Source of the DNA: Octopus vulgaris
Taxonomy: Eukaryota
Reading direction: 5' to 3'
Length of the DNA stretch: 64,000 bases
Assembly: GCA_951406725.2 (NCBI GenBank)
Contig: OX597826.1
Coordinates: 57,660,001 to 57,724,000 of the forward strand
In this document: piece by piece, positions 5,540 to 63,628 of the stretch
Layout: every line of letters begins with the position of its first letter
How positions within the stretch are numbered: the first letter of the stretch is position 1
Translations under genes and position numbers: made by a program
The notes under the pieces: generated by a model
The model's input: the letters and a program-made list of their open reading frames with translations, nothing else
The model's database searches: none
What the model was told of the DNA's origin: nothing

Positions 5540-6081
5540 TTAATAAAAAAAAGTACCAATCCAGAGTGGTGAACTTGAAGAATTGTTAGATAATCAGGCA
5601 AGATGCCATGCAGTATCTCTTCTGACAACACCAGTGCCAAGCTATATTGGTAGCCTTTACTTTGGATAAACATTGATGGCATGAAGAGGGAAGACTTTCA
5701 TGCATGAATGTGCAGGCAAGGACAAAATTTTAAGGAAGATTAGTAGTTGCCCATGCACACTGACTGAAAAAAGGCCTATAGTGTGCCACTGATTTTTAAT
5801 AATATACAAAAATCCTAATGCAAAATTTTTCTAATGTATATGCTTGTTGAATGATTATAACAAAATAAATGCCTTATGTTACACAATGGGCCTTTTATGC
5901 ACGTAGTTTCTATCATGCCTTGGTTGCAGAATGTATGTATGTGTGTGTACTTACACATGCACAACTTACAGGGACTAGTAACTGTTGAGCTAGTTCTAAG
6001 ATTATATTCGAATCAATAAAGTAAAAACAATGAATTTTCTTTTAGTTCTTCAATATATGAAGTTTTTTTTATATATTAATA

Positions 6082-6489
6082 GGCGCAGGAGTGGCTGTGT
6101 GGTAAGTAGCTTGTTTACCAACCACATGGTTCTGGGTTCAGTCTCACTGCGTGGCACCTTGGGCAAGTGTCTTCTGCTATAGCCTCAGGCCGACCAATGC
6201 CTTGTGAGTGGATTTGGTAGACGGAAACTGAAAGAAGCCTGTCGTATATATGTATATATATGTATGTGTGTGTATGTTTGTGTGTCTGTGTTTGTCCCCC
6301 TAGCATTGCTTGACAACCGATGCTGGTGTGTTTACGTCCTCGTCACTTAGCAGTTCGGCAAAAGAGACTGATAGAATAAGTACTGGGCTTACAAAAGAAT
6401 AAGTGCCGGGGTCAAGTTGCTCGACTAAAGGCGGTGCTCCAGCATGGCCGCAGTCAAATGACTGAAACAAGTAAAAGAGTAAAAGAGTA
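6082..6489 (+). mobile_element. Full-length young tRNA-derived SINE, family A
   Basis: A box (tggctgtgtgg), B-box-like ggttcagtc, central AT/GT microsatellite, 3' hairpin cagtc-aaat-gactg and (gtaaaaga)n tail. Near-identical to six other copies in the window. Confidence 0.92.
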
Positions 6490-13029: not shown

Positions 13030-13231
13030 AAATGTGACTGCGTGTGTACCGTTGGCGATTTTTTTTCCTCTGTCTTCCCTTCTCTGGATCTTTCCTTCTC
13101 CTATGTTTCCGACAAAGAGCTCCGCTCGAAACGTTAAACCCCTCCTTCTTTCCTGAGCGTCCAATAATACTATATTTGTTCAACGTCCTTGCGTTGTTGT
13201 GTCTTTTTGTGCTTTCATGTTTGGATTAACT
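13030..13231 (+). mobile_element. Penelope-like terminal-repeat unit, family C1
   Basis: ~200-bp unit repeated at 17911 (+) and 55827 (-), bounded by (AT)n. Contains a hammerhead-like motif at 13105-13139. Confidence 0.65.
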
Positions 13232-13257
13232 TATATATATATATATATATATTGTGA

Positions 13258-13452
13258 GAATTTACATAAAAACAAAAGACAAAGACAGGTGTGTAAAGAA
13301 CAAATAGATGTATTAGTTTAATGCTCAGGAAGTGAGAAAGTCTTATACATTTCGAGCCTACGCTCTTCAACAGAAAGGAGCACAGAAATAAACAGGGAGA
13401 GAAAATAAAAAAAGGTTTAGTGGCTAGCAATCAATCATGGTCAATGTTGGAC
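13258..13452 (-). mobile_element. Penelope-like terminal-repeat unit, family C2
   Basis: Homologous to 53873-54082. Minus-strand hammerhead-like motif at 13341-13378. Confidence 0.6.
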
Positions 13453-15396: not shown

Positions 15397-15720
15397 AGTA
15401 TATTACATAAAGTAAATAAAGTTGTTATTATTGTTACTTATGTGTACCAGCTTTAGGTCAACTCTGGGCAAACAGACATACAGTACACAGGTAGTTGTTC
15501 AAAAGACCAAGCGAGGCCCACAGATCTGTTATTCCAGATATCATATTCTTTTAACAAATTGAGAACCGTGATGCATTCAGTGACATGCAGTCACTAATCA
15601 CACAGGGTGCAGTGATGCAATAGGGACATATATTCTCTACATATTATATTCTTAAGTTCTACAGTTTCAGAAATGGCAAATATTTTGATTGTCTGTGAGC
15701 AATAGACAAACAAACAAATA

Positions 15721-15895
15721 GGCGCAGGAGTGGCTGTGTGGTAAGTAGCTTGTTTACCAACCACATGGTTCCGGGTTCAGTCCCACTGTGTGACACCTTG
15801 GGCAAGTGTCTTCTACTATAGCCTCGGGCCGACCAAAGCCTTGTGAGTGGATTTGGTAGACGGAAACTGAAAGAAGCCCGTCGTATATATGTATG

Positions 15896-15930
<35 letters not shown>

Positions 15931-16135
15931 TTGTCCCCCTAGCATTGCTTGACAACCGATGTTGGTGTGTTTACGTCCCCGTTACTTAGCGGTTCGGCAA
16001 AAGAGACCGAGAGAATAAGTACTGGGCTTACAAAATAATAAGTCCCGGGTTCGAGTTGCTCGACTAAAGGCGGTGCTCCAGCATGGCCGCAGTCAAATGA
16101 CTGAAACATGTAAAAGAGTAAAAGAGTAAAGAGTA
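15721..16135 (+). mobile_element. Full-length young family A SINE
   Basis: Near-identical to 6082-6489. Confidence 0.92.
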
Positions 16136-17910: not shown

Positions 17911-18117
17911 AAAATGTGACCTCGTGTGTACCGTTGGCGATTTTTTTTCCTCTGTCTTCCCTTCTCTGGATCTTTCCTTCTCCTATGTTTCCGAAGAAGA
18001 GCTCTGCTTGAAACGTTAAACCCTCCTTCTTTCCTTCTTTCCTGAGCATCCAATAATACTATATTTGTTCCACGTCCTCGCGTTGTTGTGTTTTTTTGTG
18101 TTTTCTTGTTTGGATTA

Positions 18118-18121
<4 letters not shown>
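17911..18121 (+). mobile_element. Family C1 Penelope-like unit following an old family A 5' half (17770-17905)
   Basis: Homologous to 13030-13231, with (AT)n on both sides. Confidence 0.65.
17987..18021 (+). ncRNA. Minimal type I hammerhead-ribozyme-like motif (U4C variant)
   Basis: GTTT-CCGAAGA-A-GAGC-TCT-GCTT-GAAAC-GT-T-AAAC. Stem I is GTTT/AAAC, stem II is GAGC/GCTY, and stem III is the loop-less palindrome ACGT. Confidence 0.55.
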
Positions 18122-28582: not shown

Positions 28583-29043
28583 CCCTTTCGATACCTATTT
28601 CTTTACTACCCACAAGGGGCCAAACACAGAGGGGACAAACAAGGACAGACACACGGATTAAGTTGATTATATCGAGCCCAGTGCATAACTGGTACTTATT
28701 TAATCGACCCCGAAAGGATGAAAGGCAAAGTCGACCTCGGCGGTATTTGAACTCAGATCATTAACGGCAGATGAAATACGGCTACGCATTTCGCCCGGCA
28801 TGCTAACGTTTCTGCCAGCTCACCGCCTTTGATACCAACCTACCAAACACTGCCTCTATTTCTATGATCAAACTTTCTATATTAAGAGATCCAAATTAAA
28901 GTTCACCATTAAAATTACTTGTTAATTTATGTTCCAATTACCAGCTTTGTAACGACTAAGATATTTTACCAAATTCTTTATTAATTTCAAAATTAATTGA
29001 AACAAAGGCAATGTAGTTCAACAGAAATATAGTAACAAAAGGG
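28583..29043. mobile_element. Family D piggyBac-type MITE interrupted by a B1 SINE
   Basis: TTAA|CCCTTTCGATACC ... GTAACAAAAGGG|TTAA. The body is homologous to 5319-5539. Confidence 0.78.
28596..28826 (-). mobile_element. Young SINE, family B1
   Basis: Minus-strand tRNA-like head (gagctggcagaaacgttagc..gagttcaaat), core gcctttcatcctttcggggtcgat..aagtaccag. TSD cctttcgatacc / cctttgatacc. Confidence 0.9.
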
Positions 29044-39046: not shown

Positions 39047-39593
39047 TATTTCTTTATTGCCCACAAAGGGCTAAACATAAAGGGGACAAACAAGGACAGA
39101 CAAAGGGATTAAGTCGATTACATCGACCCCAGTGCGTAACTGGTACTTAATTTATCGAACCCAAAAGGATGAAATGCAAAGTCGACCTCAGCGGAATTTG
39201 AACTCAGAACGTAACGGCAGATGAAATACCTATTTCTTTACAACCCACAAGGGGCTAAACACTGAAGGGACAAACAAGGACAGACAAAAGGGATTAAGTC
39301 GATTACATCGACCCCAGCGCGTAACTGGTACTTATTTAATCGACCCCGAAAGGATGAAAGGCAAAGTCGACCTTGGTGGAATTTGAACTCAGAATGTAAC
39401 GGCAGACGAAATACCTATTTCTTTACTACCCACAAGGGGCTAAACACAGAAGGGACAAACAAGGACAGACAAACGGATTAAGTAGATTATATCGTCCCTA
39501 GTGCATAACTGGTACTTATTTAATCGACCCCGAAAGGATGGAAGGCAAAGTCGACCATGGCAGAATTTGAACTCAGAACATAACGTCAGATGG
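39047..39593 (-). repeat. Tandem trimer of headless B1 SINE units (~184 bp each)
   Basis: Units start at 39047, 39231 and 39416. Each internal junction reads gaaatacc|tatttcttta. Confidence 0.9.
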
Positions 39594-39946
39594 AACCATG
39601 TGGTTGGTAAACAAGCTACTTACCACACAGCCACTCCTGAATATAACCACAAACAAATATGTATCATCATCATCATTTAGCATCCAGTTCGTCAGGATCT
39701 GGCAGGTTAGAGGACTGTCAAGTCCCACTGTCTGTTTTGGCATGGTTTCTATGGCTCTGTCTCTCTCTCTCACTCTTTCTCTTAATATATATACATACAG
39801 ACATATTAATGTGTGTTTGATGTCAAGTTATTTAGAGCAAGCAATTTAACATTAAGCTGAAGAATTAATACTTTTAGTAGAGTACATATTTATCAACTTT
39901 TATAAGGAAAAAGTTGACAGTCCATCATTATCATTTAATGTCCATA

Positions 39947-40357
39947 GGCACAGGAGTGGCTGTGTGGTAAGTAGCTTGTTTACCAACCACATGATTTCGG
40001 GTTCAGTCCCACTGCGTGGCACCTTGGGCAAGTGTCTTCTACTATAGCCTCGGGCCGACCAAAGCCTTGTGAGTTGATGTGGTAGACGGAAACTGAAAGA
40101 AGCCCGTCGTATATATGTATATATATATATGCGTGTGTGTGTTTGTGTGTCTGTGTTTGTCCCCCTAGCATTGCTTGACAACCGATGCTGGTGTGTTTAT
40201 GTCCCCATTACTTAGCGGTTCGGCAAAAGAAACTGATAGAATAAGTACAGGGCTTACAAAAGAATAAGTCCCAGGGTCGAGTTGCTCGATTAAAGGTGGT
40301 ACTCCAGCATGGCCGCAGTCAAATGACTGAAACAAGTAAAAGAGTAAAAGAGTAAAG
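39947..40357 (+). mobile_element. Full-length young family A SINE
   Basis: Near-identical to 6082-6489. Confidence 0.92.
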
Positions 40358-50459: not shown

Positions 50460-51195
50460 TCTTTTATCTTTTACTCGTTTCAGTCATTAGACTGCAGCCA
50501 TGCTGGGGCACTGCCTTCTAGAATTTTTAGTCAAATGAATCTACACTAGTTCTTTTATTGTTAAGCCTGGTACATATTCTATTGGTTTCATTTCCTGAAA
50601 CACTAAGTTATTGGAACATAAATGCACCAATATCGGTTGTCAAGTAGTAGTGGGGTATGAACACAGACGCTTATATACACATAGGCGCAGGAGTGGCTGT
50701 GTGGTAAGTAGCTTGCTAACCAGCCACATGGTTCTGGGTTCAGTCCCACTGCCTGGCATCTTGGGCAAATGTCTTCTACTATAGCCCCAGGCTGACCAAT
50801 GCCTTGTGAGTGAATTTGGTAGATGGAAACTGAAAGAAGCCTGTCGTATATATGTATATATATATGTATGTGTATGTATATGTTTGTGTGTCTGTGTTTG
50901 TCCTTCTAGCATTGCTTGTAAAACCGATGCTGGTGTGTTTACGTCCCCGTCACTTAGCGGTTCAGCAAAAGAGACCGATAGAATAAGTACTGGGCTTACA
51001 AAGAATAAGTCCCGGGGTCGATTTGCTCGACTAAAAGGCGGTGCTCCAGCTTGGCCACAGTCGAATGACTGAAACAAGTAAAAGAGTAAAGAGAGTAGGC
51101 TTCATTCAGTTTTCACTAACTAAATCTTCTCACAAGGCTTTGGTTAGCCTAGGACCAAAGAAGAAGATACTTGGCCAAGTTGTCATGTAGTTGGC
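50460..51195 (-). mobile_element. Old family A SINE split by a young antisense family A copy
   Basis: Segments 50460-50680 and 51098-51195 join into a minus-strand family A copy. Confidence 0.75.
50684..51097 (+). mobile_element. Full-length young family A SINE
   Basis: Near-identical to the other young copies. Confidence 0.92.
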
Positions 51196-51291: not shown

Positions 51292-51519
51292 TATTTCTTT
51301 ACTACCCACAAGGGGCTAAACAGAGAGGGAACAAACAAGGACAGACAAACAGATTAAGTCGATTATATCGACCCCAGTGCGAAACTGGTACTTTATTTAT
51401 CGACCCCGAAAGGATGAAAGGCAAAGTCGACCTCAGCGGAATTTGAACCCAGAACATAACAACAGACGAAATACGGCTACGCATTTCGCTCAGCGTGCTA
51501 ACGTTTCTGCCAGCTCGCC
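51292..51519 (-). mobile_element. Young B1 SINE
   Basis: Perfect 14-bp TSD ccataaactatgta at 51278-51291 and 51518-51531. Confidence 0.92.
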
Positions 51520-53389: not shown

Positions 53390-53872
53390 TGTGCTTAGAG
53401 TGTGGCTTTACAGATTGTATCTAGTCTCACTAAATGATCGTCCACTCGTGACCGAGGAAGACCATTGCCGACCTTCAGGAACATTGTGCCCTCTAGGACT
53501 AACTTATATTTTGCATTTGCGGCTCCGTTGGTGGCTAATTAGCCCTGCTCTTGACAAGCATACACGACTGCAAACATTGTAGACCAAGCTTTCCCCATTC
53601 ACTATACGAGCTGTGCGCTTTCGCACAGCTCGCTTAAGTTCTTCATGCTGGATACGTGCTCTCTCAAAAGTGTCGATCCCCTCCTTAACCTGCTTTCTCC
53701 ATCTGTGGTGATGACAGGCATTGTTCTCCCAGTCAGTGTCCTGTATATCAAAAGCCTTTAACGAGGACTTGACACAGTCCTTAAATCGTAGCCTTGGTTT
53801 CTGCCAGAGTCTCCTTCTATTCACAAGTTCTCCATAGAGCATCTGCTTAGGAATCCTTCTATCCTCCATTCG
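53390..53872 (-). mobile_element. 5'-truncated RTE-clade LINE (ORF C-terminus and 3' UTR)
   Basis: ORF 53504-53872 reads 'RMEDRRIPKQMLYGEL..KPRLRFKDCVKSSLK..DW..RWR..CSRVCLSRAGLISHQR', the typical RTE C-terminus with a Cys/His motif. The first ~17 aa of the listed ORF come from the adjacent C2 unit. Confidence 0.88.
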
Positions 53873-54082
53873 GGAAGGTTTACGAAAATAAACAAAAGAC
53901 GAAGGCAAGTGGAGTACAAACAAACAAATGTATTAGTATAGCGCTCAGGAATAGAAATAGAAAAAGTCTTTTACGTTTCGAGCCTATGCTCTTTGACAGA
54001 AAGATACACAGAAAAAAACAAGGAGAGAAACAAGGAGAGAAAAAAAAATGCATGTAGGAGCTAACGCTCTATCATGGCGTCC
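53873..54082 (-). mobile_element. Family C2 Penelope-like unit
   Basis: Homologous to 13258-13452 and abuts (AT)n/(GTAT)n. Confidence 0.6.
53967..54004 (-). ncRNA. Minimal hammerhead-like motif (C2 variant, probably decayed)
   Basis: The minus strand reads TCTTT-CTGTCAA-A-GAGC-ATAG-GCTC-GAAAC-GT-A-AAAGA. Confidence 0.45.
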
Positions 54083-55827: not shown

Positions 55828-56057
55828 GTTAATCCAAACATGAAAACACAAAGAGAAAACACAACGCGAGGAGAGGATGTGGAACAAATATAGTATTATT
55901 GGACACTCAGGAAGGAAGGGAGGGAGGAAGGAAGGGAAGAAGGAGGGTCTTATGTTTCGAGCGGAGCTCTTCGTTGGAAACATAGGAGAAGGAAAGATCC
56001 AGAGAAGGGAAGACAGAGGAAAAAAAATCGCCTACGGTATACACGCGGTCACATTTT
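55827..56057 (-). mobile_element. Family C1 Penelope-like unit inside an old minus-strand family A SINE (~55480-56228)
   Basis: Reverse complement of C1, with a decayed hammerhead motif at 55948-55983. Family A halves lie on either side. Confidence 0.65.
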
Positions 56058-59348: not shown

Positions 59349-59522
59349 CAATGGGTATTTTAATTTCCATGTAATTATTAATTTAAATATGACAATCACA
59401 AAATATGTACAATTAACTAAGATCTATGAAATTAACAGCTCCAAAATAGACACCTAAGATTCATATAGAAATTGAGGTTGTTTTACATGAAAGTTTGACC
59501 TTTAATTATAAAGCTGAAAACA

Positions 59523-59937
59523 AGGAGTGGCTGTGTGGTAAGTAGCTTGTTTACCAACCACATGGTTCCGGGTTCAGTCCCACTGCGTGGTACCTTGGGC
59601 AAGTGTCTTCTACTATAGCCTCGGGCTGACCAAAGCCTTGTGAGAGGATTTGGTAGACGGAAACTGAAAGAAGCCCGTCGTATATATGTATATACATATA
59701 TGCGTGTGTGTGTTTGTGTGTCTGTGTTTGTCCCCCTAGCATTGCTTGACAACCAATGCTGGTGTGTTTATGTCCCCGTTACTTAGCAGTTCGGCAAAAG
59801 AGACCGATAGAATAAGTACTGGGCTTACAAAAAGAATAAGTTCCCAGGGTCGAGTTGCTCGATTAAAGGCAGTGCTCCAGCATGGCCGCAGTCAAATGAC
59901 TGAAACAAGTAAAAGAGTAGAAGTGTAAAGAGAGTAA
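59523..59937 (+). mobile_element. Young family A SINE lacking the first ~5 nt
   Basis: Near-identical to the other young copies. Confidence 0.92.
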
Positions 59938-60835: not shown

Positions 60836-61066
60836 TATTTCTTTGCTGCCCACAAGGGGCTAAACATAGAGGGGACAAACAAGGACAGACAAAGGGATTA
60901 AGTCGATTACACCCCCCCCCCAGTGCGAAACTGGTACTTTATTTATCAACCCTGAAAGGATGACAGGCAAAGTCGACCTCGGCGGAATTTGAACTCAGAA
61001 CGTAACGACAGACGAAATACCGCTAAGCATTTCGCCCGGCACGCTAATGTTTCTGCCAGCTCGCTG
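60836..61066 (-). mobile_element. Young B1 SINE inserted in the tail of an older B2 copy (which extends to ~61275)
   Basis: 13-bp TSD cctttctattata at 60823-60835 and 61067-61079. Confidence 0.9.
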
Positions 61067-62897
61067 CCTTTCTATTATAAGCACAGGACTTGAAATTTTG
61101 GAGGAGAGGACTAGTTGACTACATCAACCCCAGTGTTCTACTGGTTCTTATTTTATCGACTGTAAAAGGATGAAAGGCAAAGTCGACCTCAGTGGAAATT
61201 GAGCTCTGAATATAAAGATGGACGAAATGTTGCTAAGCATTTTGTCCTGTGAGCTGATGATTTTGCCAGCTTGCAGCTTTTGTGTGTGTTAACAATGAAA
61301 AATCATAAGTAATAACAGCATTGTTTCTTATCTTAGTTATATACAAATATAAGAGAGTCTTTGAATTGTCTTACAGAAATGAAATGAAATGCAGCTTCAA
61401 GCATTTTGTCTACACGTCTAGCACTTGAGAGTCAATCTTCATATCTCTTAGACAGTATTCCATTTCCGTAGGGAAATTCAAAACCCTTTTATACCTGTAT
61501 ATAAACCAAGAAATGATACTTTCATTGCTTCTGACTAATTTTTCTTTTCATTATTAATAATAATATATTATTCTGAACACTACCAAGAACTTTTCAGTTT
61601 TGTATATATGTGTGTGTGTGTGGGGGGGTGTATATGTGTGGGTGGATGTGAATGTGTGTATGCAGTGTACACATGTTAGAAGGGAAACATATTCAGACTG
61701 ATAGTTTTGAATTTCATATTAACAGTTTCCTATTTCTCCACAACACTATTATCTTCACAATATAAATTATAGAATTCGGAACAATAATAGAACAGAATTT
61801 TCACCTAGATGGTCAATTCTATTCTACACTTTGAAATTCACCTGCTAACCAAAAATGATAAAATACTTTTCTGTTGCTTCTTTTTTTTTTGTTTTTGTTT
61901 CCAATTTCCTTAGAAGCTAGTTATCATAACAGTAAGCAATACAACTGAATATAACAGAGAGAGACAAAAGAAAGCAGAAAGAGATCATAGCTAAAGAAAC
62001 GGATCATAGCTAAAATTACTGAATAACAAAAATATATACTTTAAAATTTCAATCTCATATTCATGTCATAATTATAATTAAAATATACTTTATGGCACAT
62101 TTCACTGAACCTAGATTTTATTTGTTATTTATTTATTTGTTTGCTTTTTTTACTTGATATAAAAGTAATTTTGAATATATCAGTCAATAAGAAAATAATA
62201 GTTATGTTTTTGTTGTATAAATGCTTTTAAAATGATTTTCAGTTTTATCTCAGAATATAAGCATCTGAGTAAATTTTAAGACAGAATCAGTAGTAACAGT
62301 AGATTCAGACTTGTACAGTACTAACAATAAATTTCTCTCTATTTTCACCACTTGTGGTTGCAGCTCATTGAGGAAAAAAACATGTTTAAAAATAGAAAAC
62401 AAAAGAATCAAGGAAAAATTTATTATAGTACATACATGGTATTTGTAACATTTTATATACATTAATGGTAGGAGGGGAAAAAAATCAGGTTACATACAGT
62501 ATTTTATATAAACAAGATATATTGAATGTTGACAACTGGAGGTTGTTTTAAGACAACTTCAGGCAACATGAAAGAAGATAAATTGTGTGTTAAGCATCAA
62601 AATCTTACAAAAATCAATCAGATTAAAAATAGAGAATATATATCTTTTCAATCACAGTCTTTAGTTTATCAATAGTTTAGCACTTCTAACAATACAATAC
62701 CTTGCAATTTAAAGTTAAAATGTCGATAATTGTCAGACATTTTTATTATCTGTGCTAATTTTATGGCATTACTACCTAAAACATTAGTATGTTTATTAAG
62801 AAATTAAAAGAAGTGAAAGTCATTAAGTTATACAATTAAAGTTTGAAAATAATAGTCTTTTTATGAGGAAAAAACAAAATAATCTGTATATATATAT

Positions 62898-63016
62898 GCT
62901 TACGGCCATATCACGTTGAAAGCACCGGTTCTCGTCTGATCACCGAAGTTAAGTAACATCGAGCCTAGTTAGTACTTAAATGGGTGATTGCTTGGGAAAC
63001 CTTGGTGCTGTAAGCA
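62898..63016 (+). pseudogene. 5S rRNA-derived sequence (119 nt)
   Basis: gcttacggccatatcacgttgaaagcaccggttctcgtctgatcaccgaagttaag...gttagtacttaaatgggtga..gcttgggaa..ggtgctgtaagc. The terminal helix gcttac/gtaagc is intact. Confidence 0.9.
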
Positions 63017-63195: not shown

Positions 63196-63628
63196 CCCTT
63201 TAGCATTTAAACCTGCCATATCCAGCCCACTTAGTCTCCCTGTTTTATGTTCAAACCAGCCAGATCAGGCCTTTTACATCATCCCTACAATGTTGTTCTA
63301 AAAATAATTATCTATTTCTTTACTACCCACAAGGGGCTAAACACAGAGGGGACAAACAAGGACAGACAAACGGATTAAGTCAATTACATCGACCCCAGTC
63401 CGTAATTGGTACTTAGTTTATCGACCCCGAAAGGATGAAAGGCAAAGTCGACCTTGGCGGAATTTGAACTCAGAACGTAACGGCAGATGAAATACGGCTA
63501 CGCATTTCGCCCAGTGTGCTAACGTTTCTGCCATAAATACCGAAGCTATGAGACAATGCAAATTTAATTCAAAACATTGTTAATAAATAAGTATTACATC
63601 TGACAAAGTAATCTGAATACTAATAGTG
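63196..63628. mobile_element. Family F MITE interrupted by B1 and itself nested in a family I repeat (~63113-63730)
   Basis: TTAA|CCCTTTAGCATT left end. Both halves match 26615-26833; the right TIR is decayed. Confidence 0.72.
63313..63533 (-). mobile_element. Young B1 SINE
   Basis: Near-identical to 28596 and 51292, with a possible imperfect TSD ataattatc / ataaatacc. Confidence 0.9.

What the first reader, a model, noticed from the sequence alone, without database searches (positions are those of the whole stretch)
13030..13452. Two families of minimal variant hammerhead ribozymes in Penelope-like units, here arranged tail-to-tail
Seen: C1 has 3 copies (motifs at 13105, 17987, 55948 minus) with consensus GTTT-CCGANGA-A-GAGC-tcc-GCTC-GAAAC-GT-T-AAAC. 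C2 has 2 copies (13341 minus, 53967 minus) with consensus TCTTT-CTGTYGA-A-GAGC-rtag-GCTC-GAAAC-GT-A-AAAGA. Stem I covaries between the families, loop II differs, and stem II, GAAAC and the loop-less ACGT stem III are retained. Established: minimal type I hammerheads with a palindromic stem III occur in Penelope-like element repeats and cleave as dimers. Inference: these are octopus variants with non-canonical cores (U4C in C1, A6U in C2). The individual copies here carry extra mutations and may be dead.
Basis: partly seen in the sequence, partly recalled or inferred. Interest (0 to 1): 0.72.

Follow-up and report, generated by a model that had tools for sequence, protein, structure and literature searches.

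The report
Jumping genes with detuned hammerhead ribozymes
The five motifs are the cut-short tail ends of two very abundant Penelope-type jumping genes, each carrying that group's known small self-cutting RNA shape but with one core letter changed even in the youngest intact copies, which is predicted to slow the cutting and offers a natural test of whether these elements need to cut their RNA at all.

Summary
All five motifs are real. They are 5'-truncated 3' ends (pLTR stubs, about 200 bp) of two sister Neptune-type Penelope retrotransposon lineages. I traced both to intact RT + GIY-YIG elements in head-to-tail arrays (C1 6.2 kb, C2 4.5 kb). The variant cores are family traits, not decay: C4 in 34 of 34 C1 motifs and U6 in 30 of 30 C2 motifs around long ORFs; 7,720 exact U4C matches and 15,272 C2 matches (96 of the first 100 with U6) genome-wide. 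U4C arose once from a canonical subfamily that is still in the genome. Between subfamilies only positions 4, 6, 7, 17, loop II and stem I change, so the fold is under selection. Cleavage is untested: inserted 3' ends run 95-110 nt past an uncut site, and insertions do not start preferentially at the cut site (control inconclusive). The tail-to-tail layout is incidental, most likely from a shared (TA)n target. Three window copies have lost G8 or G5. Minimal PLE hammerheads are published; the fixed U-turn changes are the new part, and this scan noted them before elsewhere in this genome.

The parts
13030..13230 (+). C1 pLTR stub: 5'-truncated 3' end of a Neptune-type PLE (main U4C subfamily)
   Evidence: 93-96% identical to the 39 best other copies among 2,925 first-look candidates; 90% to the 3' end of RT + GIY-YIG element L091; ends
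13105..13139 (+). C1 minimal type I hammerhead motif; predicted cut after 13135; this copy has G8A and is predicted dead
   Evidence: sequence
13150..13159 (+). Conserved downstream motif TTCCYGAGCG, shared by C1, C2 and family E; role unknown
13231..13252 (.). (TA)n tract shared by the two 3' ends; likely insertion target
   Evidence: sequence; terminal copies of intact elements also end in TTATA joined to (TA)n
13252..13452 (-). C2 pLTR stub of an old C2 subfamily; the 5' end near 13446-13452 is approximate
   Evidence: 86% to L215 and 79% to L269; among old subfamilies in the flank tree
13341..13378 (-). C2 hammerhead motif with U6; C15.2U and A1.1U weaken stems III and I
17912..18119 (+). 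C1 stub; motif 17987-18021 keeps the family core, with C11.1U (G-U pair closing stem II)
53871..54082 (-). C2 stub (main subfamily); motif 54004-53967 has G8A; its 3' end abuts a LINE-like fragment instead of (TA)n
55828..56056 (-). C1 stub; motif 55981-55947 has G5A and G16.2A, predicted dead

Best explanation
The motifs are the 3' ends of two sister Neptune-type Penelope retrotransposons whose hammerhead fold is kept by selection but likely cuts only slowly, as a dimer and probably with help from the element's protein. Shown: each intact unit is pLTR - RT/zinc-finger linker/GIY-YIG ORF - 3' UTR - pLTR, with one motif per pLTR; inserted copies end at an internal TTATA about 95-110 nt past the predicted cut site and are joined to (TA)n; 5' ends are variably truncated. 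Inferred: the endonuclease nicks (TA)n, the RT starts inside a more-than-unit RNA whose 3' hammerhead has not cut, and early termination leaves thousands of stubs. Because an uncut RNA is what gets copied, changes in the CUGA turn (U4C in C1, A6U in C2) cost little and were carried by successful master elements. The pair at 13030-13452 likely arose when the younger C1 stub inserted into the TA tail of an older C2 stub.
For: ORF link: L091, L096/L097; intact arrays; Pfam RVT_1 and GIY-YIG, the RT of P0002 above the curated cut-off, the others below; C1 and C2 proteins 68% identical over 729 aa. Variant cores at intact elements: C4 in 34 of 34 C1 motifs in 17 regions chosen by RT similarity; U6 in 30 of 30 C2 motifs in 20 stretches, 2 of which had no motif. 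Selection on the fold: over 11 comparisons of 12 subfamily majorities (flank change sums to 1.13 per site), 20 motif positions never change, position 17 changes 6 times among A, U and C and never to G, position 7 changes 3 times. U4C is one clade (99/88) inside canonical relatives. Literature: in the anole PLE, RT starts internally, hammerhead mutants insert normally and cleavage needs the protein (PMC11167929); U4C lowers activity in vitro yet allows viroid infectivity, and natural A6C cleaves at under 0.1 per minute (PMC3088659).
Against: No cleavage was observed. In a deep mutational scan all CUGA-region mutants except the C-G swap had low activity (PMC9901934). No excess of insertions starting at the cut site: 20 of 96 C2 truncations fall in the three positions that could be the cut (p 0.46) and 26 of 85 in the four for C1 (p 0.74) (hand counts); TA microhomology blurs both and the canonical control was inconclusive. 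The youngest C1 has a U-U mismatch in stem I, and its dimer fold scores -0.9 against -22.3 kcal/mol for the best dimer structure; even canonical subfamilies sit 11-18 kcal/mol above it. Loop II is also nearly invariant, which cleavage alone does not require. Copies were collected with a motif filter, so part of the invariance is built in.
Confidence: 0.55

Rival explanations
1. Same elements, but the variant motifs no longer cleave; the sequence is kept as a protein-binding or promoter element of the pLTR.
For: No cut-site footprint; 3' copies always uncut; stem I decays AAAC > AGAC > ATAC in the C1 line that is now youngest; loop II and a downstream motif are conserved too; hammerhead mutants insert normally in vitro; Naiad PLEs thrive without a canonical motif.
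Against: The positions that vary are those a hammerhead leaves free (7 and 17), and 17 never becomes G in 6 changes (about 0.09 by chance, my estimate); G5, G8, A9, G12-A14 and the ACGU palindrome are fixed; C2 keeps a perfect 5-bp stem I in its youngest copies.
Confidence: 0.3
2. The variant cores are fully active in vivo because tertiary contacts or the element's protein compensate, and cleavage of the upstream pLTR makes unit-length or circular templates.
For: Strong conservation of the motif; head-to-tail arrays put two or more motifs on one transcript; protein-assisted cleavage is known for one PLE.
Against: Efficient cleavage should leave many insertions that begin at position 1.1; none in excess. 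Full-length copies examined either carry a whole upstream motif or start at scattered places.
Confidence: 0.1
3. The tail-to-tail pair is a functional unit, for example a heterodimeric ribozyme or one composite element.
For: Both motifs share the ACGU palindrome, so a mixed dimer is possible on paper; other tail-to-tail pairs exist (L029, L177).
Against: Opposite strands; different ages; all orientations occur among 7 close pairs; none of the 29 other C1 loci repeats this C1-C2 junction; the C1 copy has lost G8.
Confidence: 0.03

Closest known systems
Minimal hammerheads (min-HHR) in pLTRs of metazoan PLEs (Cervera and de la Pena 2014, PMC4209133; read: main text parts 1-2 of 4, supplement parts 1-2 of 3)
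   Same: Type I topology, short stem I, extra base between A9 and 10.1, G10.1-C11.1, loop-less palindromic stem III, one motif per pLTR, mostly single truncated copies. The Acropora digitifera Neptune motif in Fig. S3 is nearly the same design.
   Different: All 56 representatives in Fig. S3 keep U4-G5-A6 (their descriptor required it, apart from the U3-A8 swap). Here C4 or U6 is fixed in young, intact families.
Neptune clade of EN+ Penelope-like elements (definitions from Craig et al. 2021, PMC8557442 and its preprint; read: passages and supplement search hits)
   Same: C-terminal GIY-YIG with CCHH, CX4CxxC linker, DKG motif, (TA)n targets, tandem arrays. By eye the proteins follow the Neptune rows, not the Hydra rows, of their alignment.
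   Different: No tree with reference PLE proteins was built, so Neptune against Nematis rests on motifs. C1 has a 3' UTR of about 2.9 kb rich in (CA)n.
Anolis Poseidon element PAc (Frangieh et al. 2024, PMC11167929; read: parts 1-2 of 4)
   Same: Internal RT start downstream of an uncut hammerhead, AT-rich targets, no ends found at the cut site.
   Different: Other clade; the paper reports no change in the CUGA turn. Here the RT start coincides with a TTATA that matches the target, whereas PAc starts at a site unlike the target.
Natural hammerhead core variants (Perreault et al. 2011, PMC3088659; read: section 8 and passages)
   Same: U4C is known from a viroid and A6C from a phage, both with reduced activity.
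   Different: Those are rare single cases; here each variant stands in thousands of copies. A6U is not named in the passages read.
Lunse, Weinberg and Breaker 2017, dimer-cleaving PLE hammerheads (not held; seen only as a citation and a summary in PMC6765202)
   Same: Short stem III, dimer cleavage, PLE association.
   Different: Unknown: its large collection (recalled) may already hold U4C or A6U examples.

Membership tests
EN+ Penelope-like element, Neptune type | Single ORF with PLE RT followed by C-terminal GIY-YIG | tested here: met
   Parent elements P0001 and P0002; no coding sequence of these elements in the window itself (tblastn blank)
EN+ Penelope-like element, Neptune type | CX2-5CxxC linker, CCHH in the endonuclease, DKG motif | tested here: met
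   Read against the definitions
EN+ Penelope-like element, Neptune type | pLTRs formed by tandem or partial tandem copies; 5' truncation; (TA)n targets | tested here: met
   Arrays with periods of 6.2 kb and 4.47 kb; fixed 3' ends and variable 5' ends
EN+ Penelope-like element, Neptune type | RT phylogeny inside Neptune rather than Nematis | not tested
   Only a by-eye comparison with printed alignment rows
Hydra clade PLE | DKT instead of DKG, no CCHH, CxCX5C linker | tested here: not met
Minimal type I hammerhead (min-HHR) | Stem II closed by G10.1-C11.1, GAAA, palindromic 15.2-16.2, NUH triplet, extra base after A9 | tested here: met
   All 12 subfamily majorities
Minimal type I hammerhead (min-HHR) | Canonical CUGANGA core | tested here: not met
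   C4 in C1 and U6 in C2; met by older sister subfamilies
Minimal type I hammerhead (min-HHR) | Stem I of at least 3-4 pairs, with covariation | tested here: inconclusive
   5 pairs in young C2, 4 in older C1, 3 with a U-U mismatch in young C1; one compensatory swap between C1 and C2
Minimal type I hammerhead (min-HHR) | Self-cleavage after H17 as a dimer | not testable with these tools
   The indirect genomic test found no footprint and had no working positive control
Non-LTR retrozyme | Non-coding tandem repeats of 150-1000 bp with one hammerhead per unit | tested here: not met
   The stubs are dispersed single ends of coding elements; tandem units are 4.5-6.2 kb and hold an ORF (definition)

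The most novel reading that the evidence does not exclude
Two sister retrotransposon lineages each weakened their own ribozyme at the same CUGA turn (U4C, A6U), and selection favoured it because only RNA with an uncut 3' hammerhead serves as template; the canonical relatives that remain are older and fewer, and C4 was kept although it is one CpG deamination away from the textbook U. The pLTR hammerhead would then be tuned for slow, protein-gated cutting, and A6U would be a new functional natural core.
Probability: 0.25. Interest if true: 0.65.

Novelty: new variant of a known kind. Interest (0 to 1): 0.42.

Why it matters
What hammerheads do for Penelope elements is open: Craig et al. call the function unclear, and in vitro mutants insert normally. 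This genome holds a natural series: canonical and variant cores in sister subfamilies, one letter apart, with intact young elements that supply the matching protein. That makes the question directly testable. It also shows that searches with a canonical core miss many PLE hammerheads: about 23,000 matches to the two variant-family patterns here against 14,106 for a canonical pattern. The window copies themselves are inert debris.

Tried and rejected
Rfam: no hammerhead match. General repeat finder: swamped by microsatellites. Decay as the source of the variant cores: rejected, they are fixed in intact young copies. CpG decay as the only source of canonical C1 copies: rejected, 20 CTG against 3 CCA in the first 100 of 10,419 matches (p 0.0005) and a separate canonical group in the tree. 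Cut-site footprint: none found, and the control on family D was mostly intact copies, so the power of the test is unknown. Expression: no RNA holder listed; only contigs were available, which cannot show ends. Other organisms: contigs of organisms B, C and D cover both motifs, but the difference tables missed variation at positions 4 and 7 that the genome shows, so I draw no conclusion on core conservation there. Alternative hairpin between the downstream GAGCG and stem II: predicted probability 0.02-0.76 across 12 subfamilies, and one relative with another stem II keeps AGCG without the matching change (L262), so not supported. tRNA scan of family D heads: 0 genes in 8 loci. Lunse 2017 could not be read. 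Literature searches: 'hammerhead ribozyme' + 'octopus' gave 5 papers, 4 listed, none on this by title; 'hammerhead' with U4C or A6U showed one hammerhead paper with U4C and none that I could tie to a natural hammerhead A6U, from the listing only; one search gave 0; the 2026 Octopus vulgaris repeat annotation has no occurrence of 'hammerhead' or 'ribozyme' in its main text. bioRxiv supplements were closed and were not seen.

Full report
Observation. The fuzzy motif occurs 5 times in the window and 0 times in 60 shuffles. At 13030-13452 a C1 unit on the plus strand (13030-13230) and a C2 unit on the minus strand (13452-13252) meet in a 22-base TA tract. Rfam has no hammerhead match here.

Copy number and shape. 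The window lies in a 2.8 Gb genome. The C1 and C2 units gave 2,925 and 2,210 first-look candidates (lower bounds). An exact 29-base C1 pattern with C4 has 7,720 matches against 0 for the reversed control. The C2 pattern with positions 6, 7 and 17 free has 15,272 matches against 0; of the first 100, 96 have U6, 2 A6, 1 C6 and 1 G6, and position 7 takes all four letters. Copies share a fixed 3' end followed by (TA)n and have variable 5' ends, the usual mark of target-primed reverse transcription that stops early.

Parent elements. Walking 5' from longer copies led, for C1, through a long CA-rich 3' UTR to a broken ORF with YIDD-type RT motifs, a cysteine linker and GIY-YIG (L091), and for C2 to a second such ORF (L096/L097). 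RT searches returned 150 scored hits each, many with identical scores and open frames of 800-1,200 codons. From these I chose 20 stretches per family, favouring long frames and tandem spacing. C1 forms head-to-tail arrays of 6.2 kb units with 883-1,008-codon frames; all 34 C1-type motifs in the 17 regions read CCGACGA. C2 forms arrays of 4.47 kb units; all 30 C2-type motifs in the 20 stretches have U6, and 2 stretches had no motif. The two proteins are 68% identical over 729 residues and match RVT_1 and GIY-YIG, only the C2 RT above the curated cut-off. DKG, a CX4CxxC linker and CCHH fit Neptune and exclude Hydra by the definitions of Craig et al.. The window holds no coding part of either element.

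History of the cores. A tree on flanks only (170 rows; 6 C2 rows were dropped by my filter, and 10 of 186 for microsatellite flanks) puts family E and 23 canonical C1 copies outside a clade of 69 rows (support 99/88) in which 63 have C4 and 6 have U4, as expected from CpG decay. The youngest intact C1 is nested inside that clade. Canonical C1 is a real subfamily: 20 CTG against 3 CCA in the first 100 of 10,419 matches, and its copies are somewhat more diverged (0.035 and 0.057 against 0.028 and 0.009). All 72 C2 rows of that tree have U6. A second tree (61 rows) places three A6-bearing C2 relatives among old U6 subfamilies; whether they are ancestral or reverted is not resolved. The outgroups have A6, so U6 is inferred to be derived.

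Selection on the fold. Copies decay neutrally after insertion, so I compared majorities of 12 subfamilies (two are single copies). Over 11 comparisons flank change sums to 1.13 per site; 20 motif positions (C3, G5, G8, A9, the extra A, stem II, GAAAC, G16.2, U16.1) never change; position 17 changes 6 times among A, U and C; position 7 changes 3 times; positions 4 and 6 change once each. This is the pattern of a hammerhead under constraint. The caveat is that copies were gathered with a motif filter, although the young and main subfamilies were first found by protein or DNA similarity. Stem I covaries between C1 and C2 at one pair, and in the C1 line it decays from AAAC through AGAC to ATAC against an unchanged GUUU. 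Other families in the genome have quite different stems I and II around canonical cores (14,106 matches against 7).

Does it cut? Not shown. Published data predict low rates: U4C decreases activity in vitro but supports viroid infectivity, natural A6C cleaves at under 0.1 per minute (PMC3088659), and mutants in the CUGA turn were poorly active in a deep scan (PMC9901934, passages). Even canonical minimal PLE motifs cleave weakly and only as multimers (PMC4209133). Terminal copies end at an internal TTATA 95-110 nt past the cut site, while internal pLTRs read through it into the next unit, so the copied RNA had an uncut 3' motif, as in the anole element (PMC11167929). Following a lead from earlier scan notes, I looked for insertions that begin at the cut site. 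By hand count, 20 of 96 truncated young C2 copies (100 of 105 matches listed, 4 set aside as intact or rearranged) and 26 of 85 young C1 copies (87 matches, 2 set aside) fall in the positions compatible with the cut, no more than an even spread gives (p 0.46 and 0.74). Both sites overlap TA or ATA, which matches the target, and the control family gave few truncations, so this is weak evidence against efficient cleavage. Computed dimer folds lie above the best alternative for all subfamilies, most for young C1.

The pair. Among 7 pairs of stubs within 600 bases in my loci, 3 are tail-to-tail, 2 head-to-head and 2 tandem. The C2 stub belongs to an old subfamily and the C1 stub to a younger one, so the simplest history is insertion of C1 into the TA tail of C2 (inference). 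On opposite strands they cannot form a dimer from one transcript. Per copy: 13105 and 53967 have G8A, 55948 has G5A and G16.2A, 13341 has C15.2U and A1.1U, and 17987 keeps the family core with a G-U pair closing stem II.

Verdict. A known kind of element and motif. The new part is that two large, recently active sister families are fixed for different changes in the CUGA turn, with canonical relatives in the same genome. I did not find this in print in my searches, but I could not read Lunse 2017, and earlier notes of this scan report U4C and A6U families in this genome. Hammerhead numbering and the roles of G8 and G12 are from established knowledge. Interest 0.42.

Noticed in passing
window 62898-63016 (+): 5S rRNA match of 100.5 bits over the full model; an isolated copy, perhaps a pseudogene or the head of a 5S-derived repeat.
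   Followed up: no
L179-L206 (family D; 19 of the 30 loci): An abundant repeat with a canonical hammerhead (5-bp stem I, 6-bp stem II) behind an (AAT)n tract and a head that looks tRNA-like by eye; ARAGORN called no tRNA in 8 loci. A recurring subtype has GAAATTTT in place of the ACGT palindrome.
   Followed up: partly
position 17 of the motif, all subfamilies: The cleavage-site base changed 6 times where about 1.1 is expected from the flanks (p about 0.001). It may reflect tuning of the rate or errors at a cut-and-rejoined site; unexplained.
   Followed up: partly
window 13150-13159 and all C1, C2 and E copies: A conserved TTCCYGAGCG 10-25 nt after the cut site; it could pair with stem II and GAAA, or be a promoter or protein site.
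   Followed up: partly
L128-L139, L146, L147: Young C1 copies show recurring open frames of 884 and 1,008 codons; in the 884 class the likely start codon is out of frame with the RT, at a C-rich tract. Frameshifting or homopolymer errors; not examined.
   Followed up: no
L262, L265, L266: Further pLTR-like families with canonical cores and other stems, one with compensatory changes in stem II.
   Followed up: no
window 53700-53870: A LINE-like RT fragment directly abuts the 3' end of the C2 stub at 53871 (seen by eye).
   Followed up: no
window 6079-6378, 15718-16017, 39944-40243, 50681-50980, 59515-59814; and 28596-28816, 39047-39636, 51292-51512, 60838-61268, 63313-63533: Two abundant short dispersed repeat families, probably SINEs (D13 and D12).
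   Followed up: no
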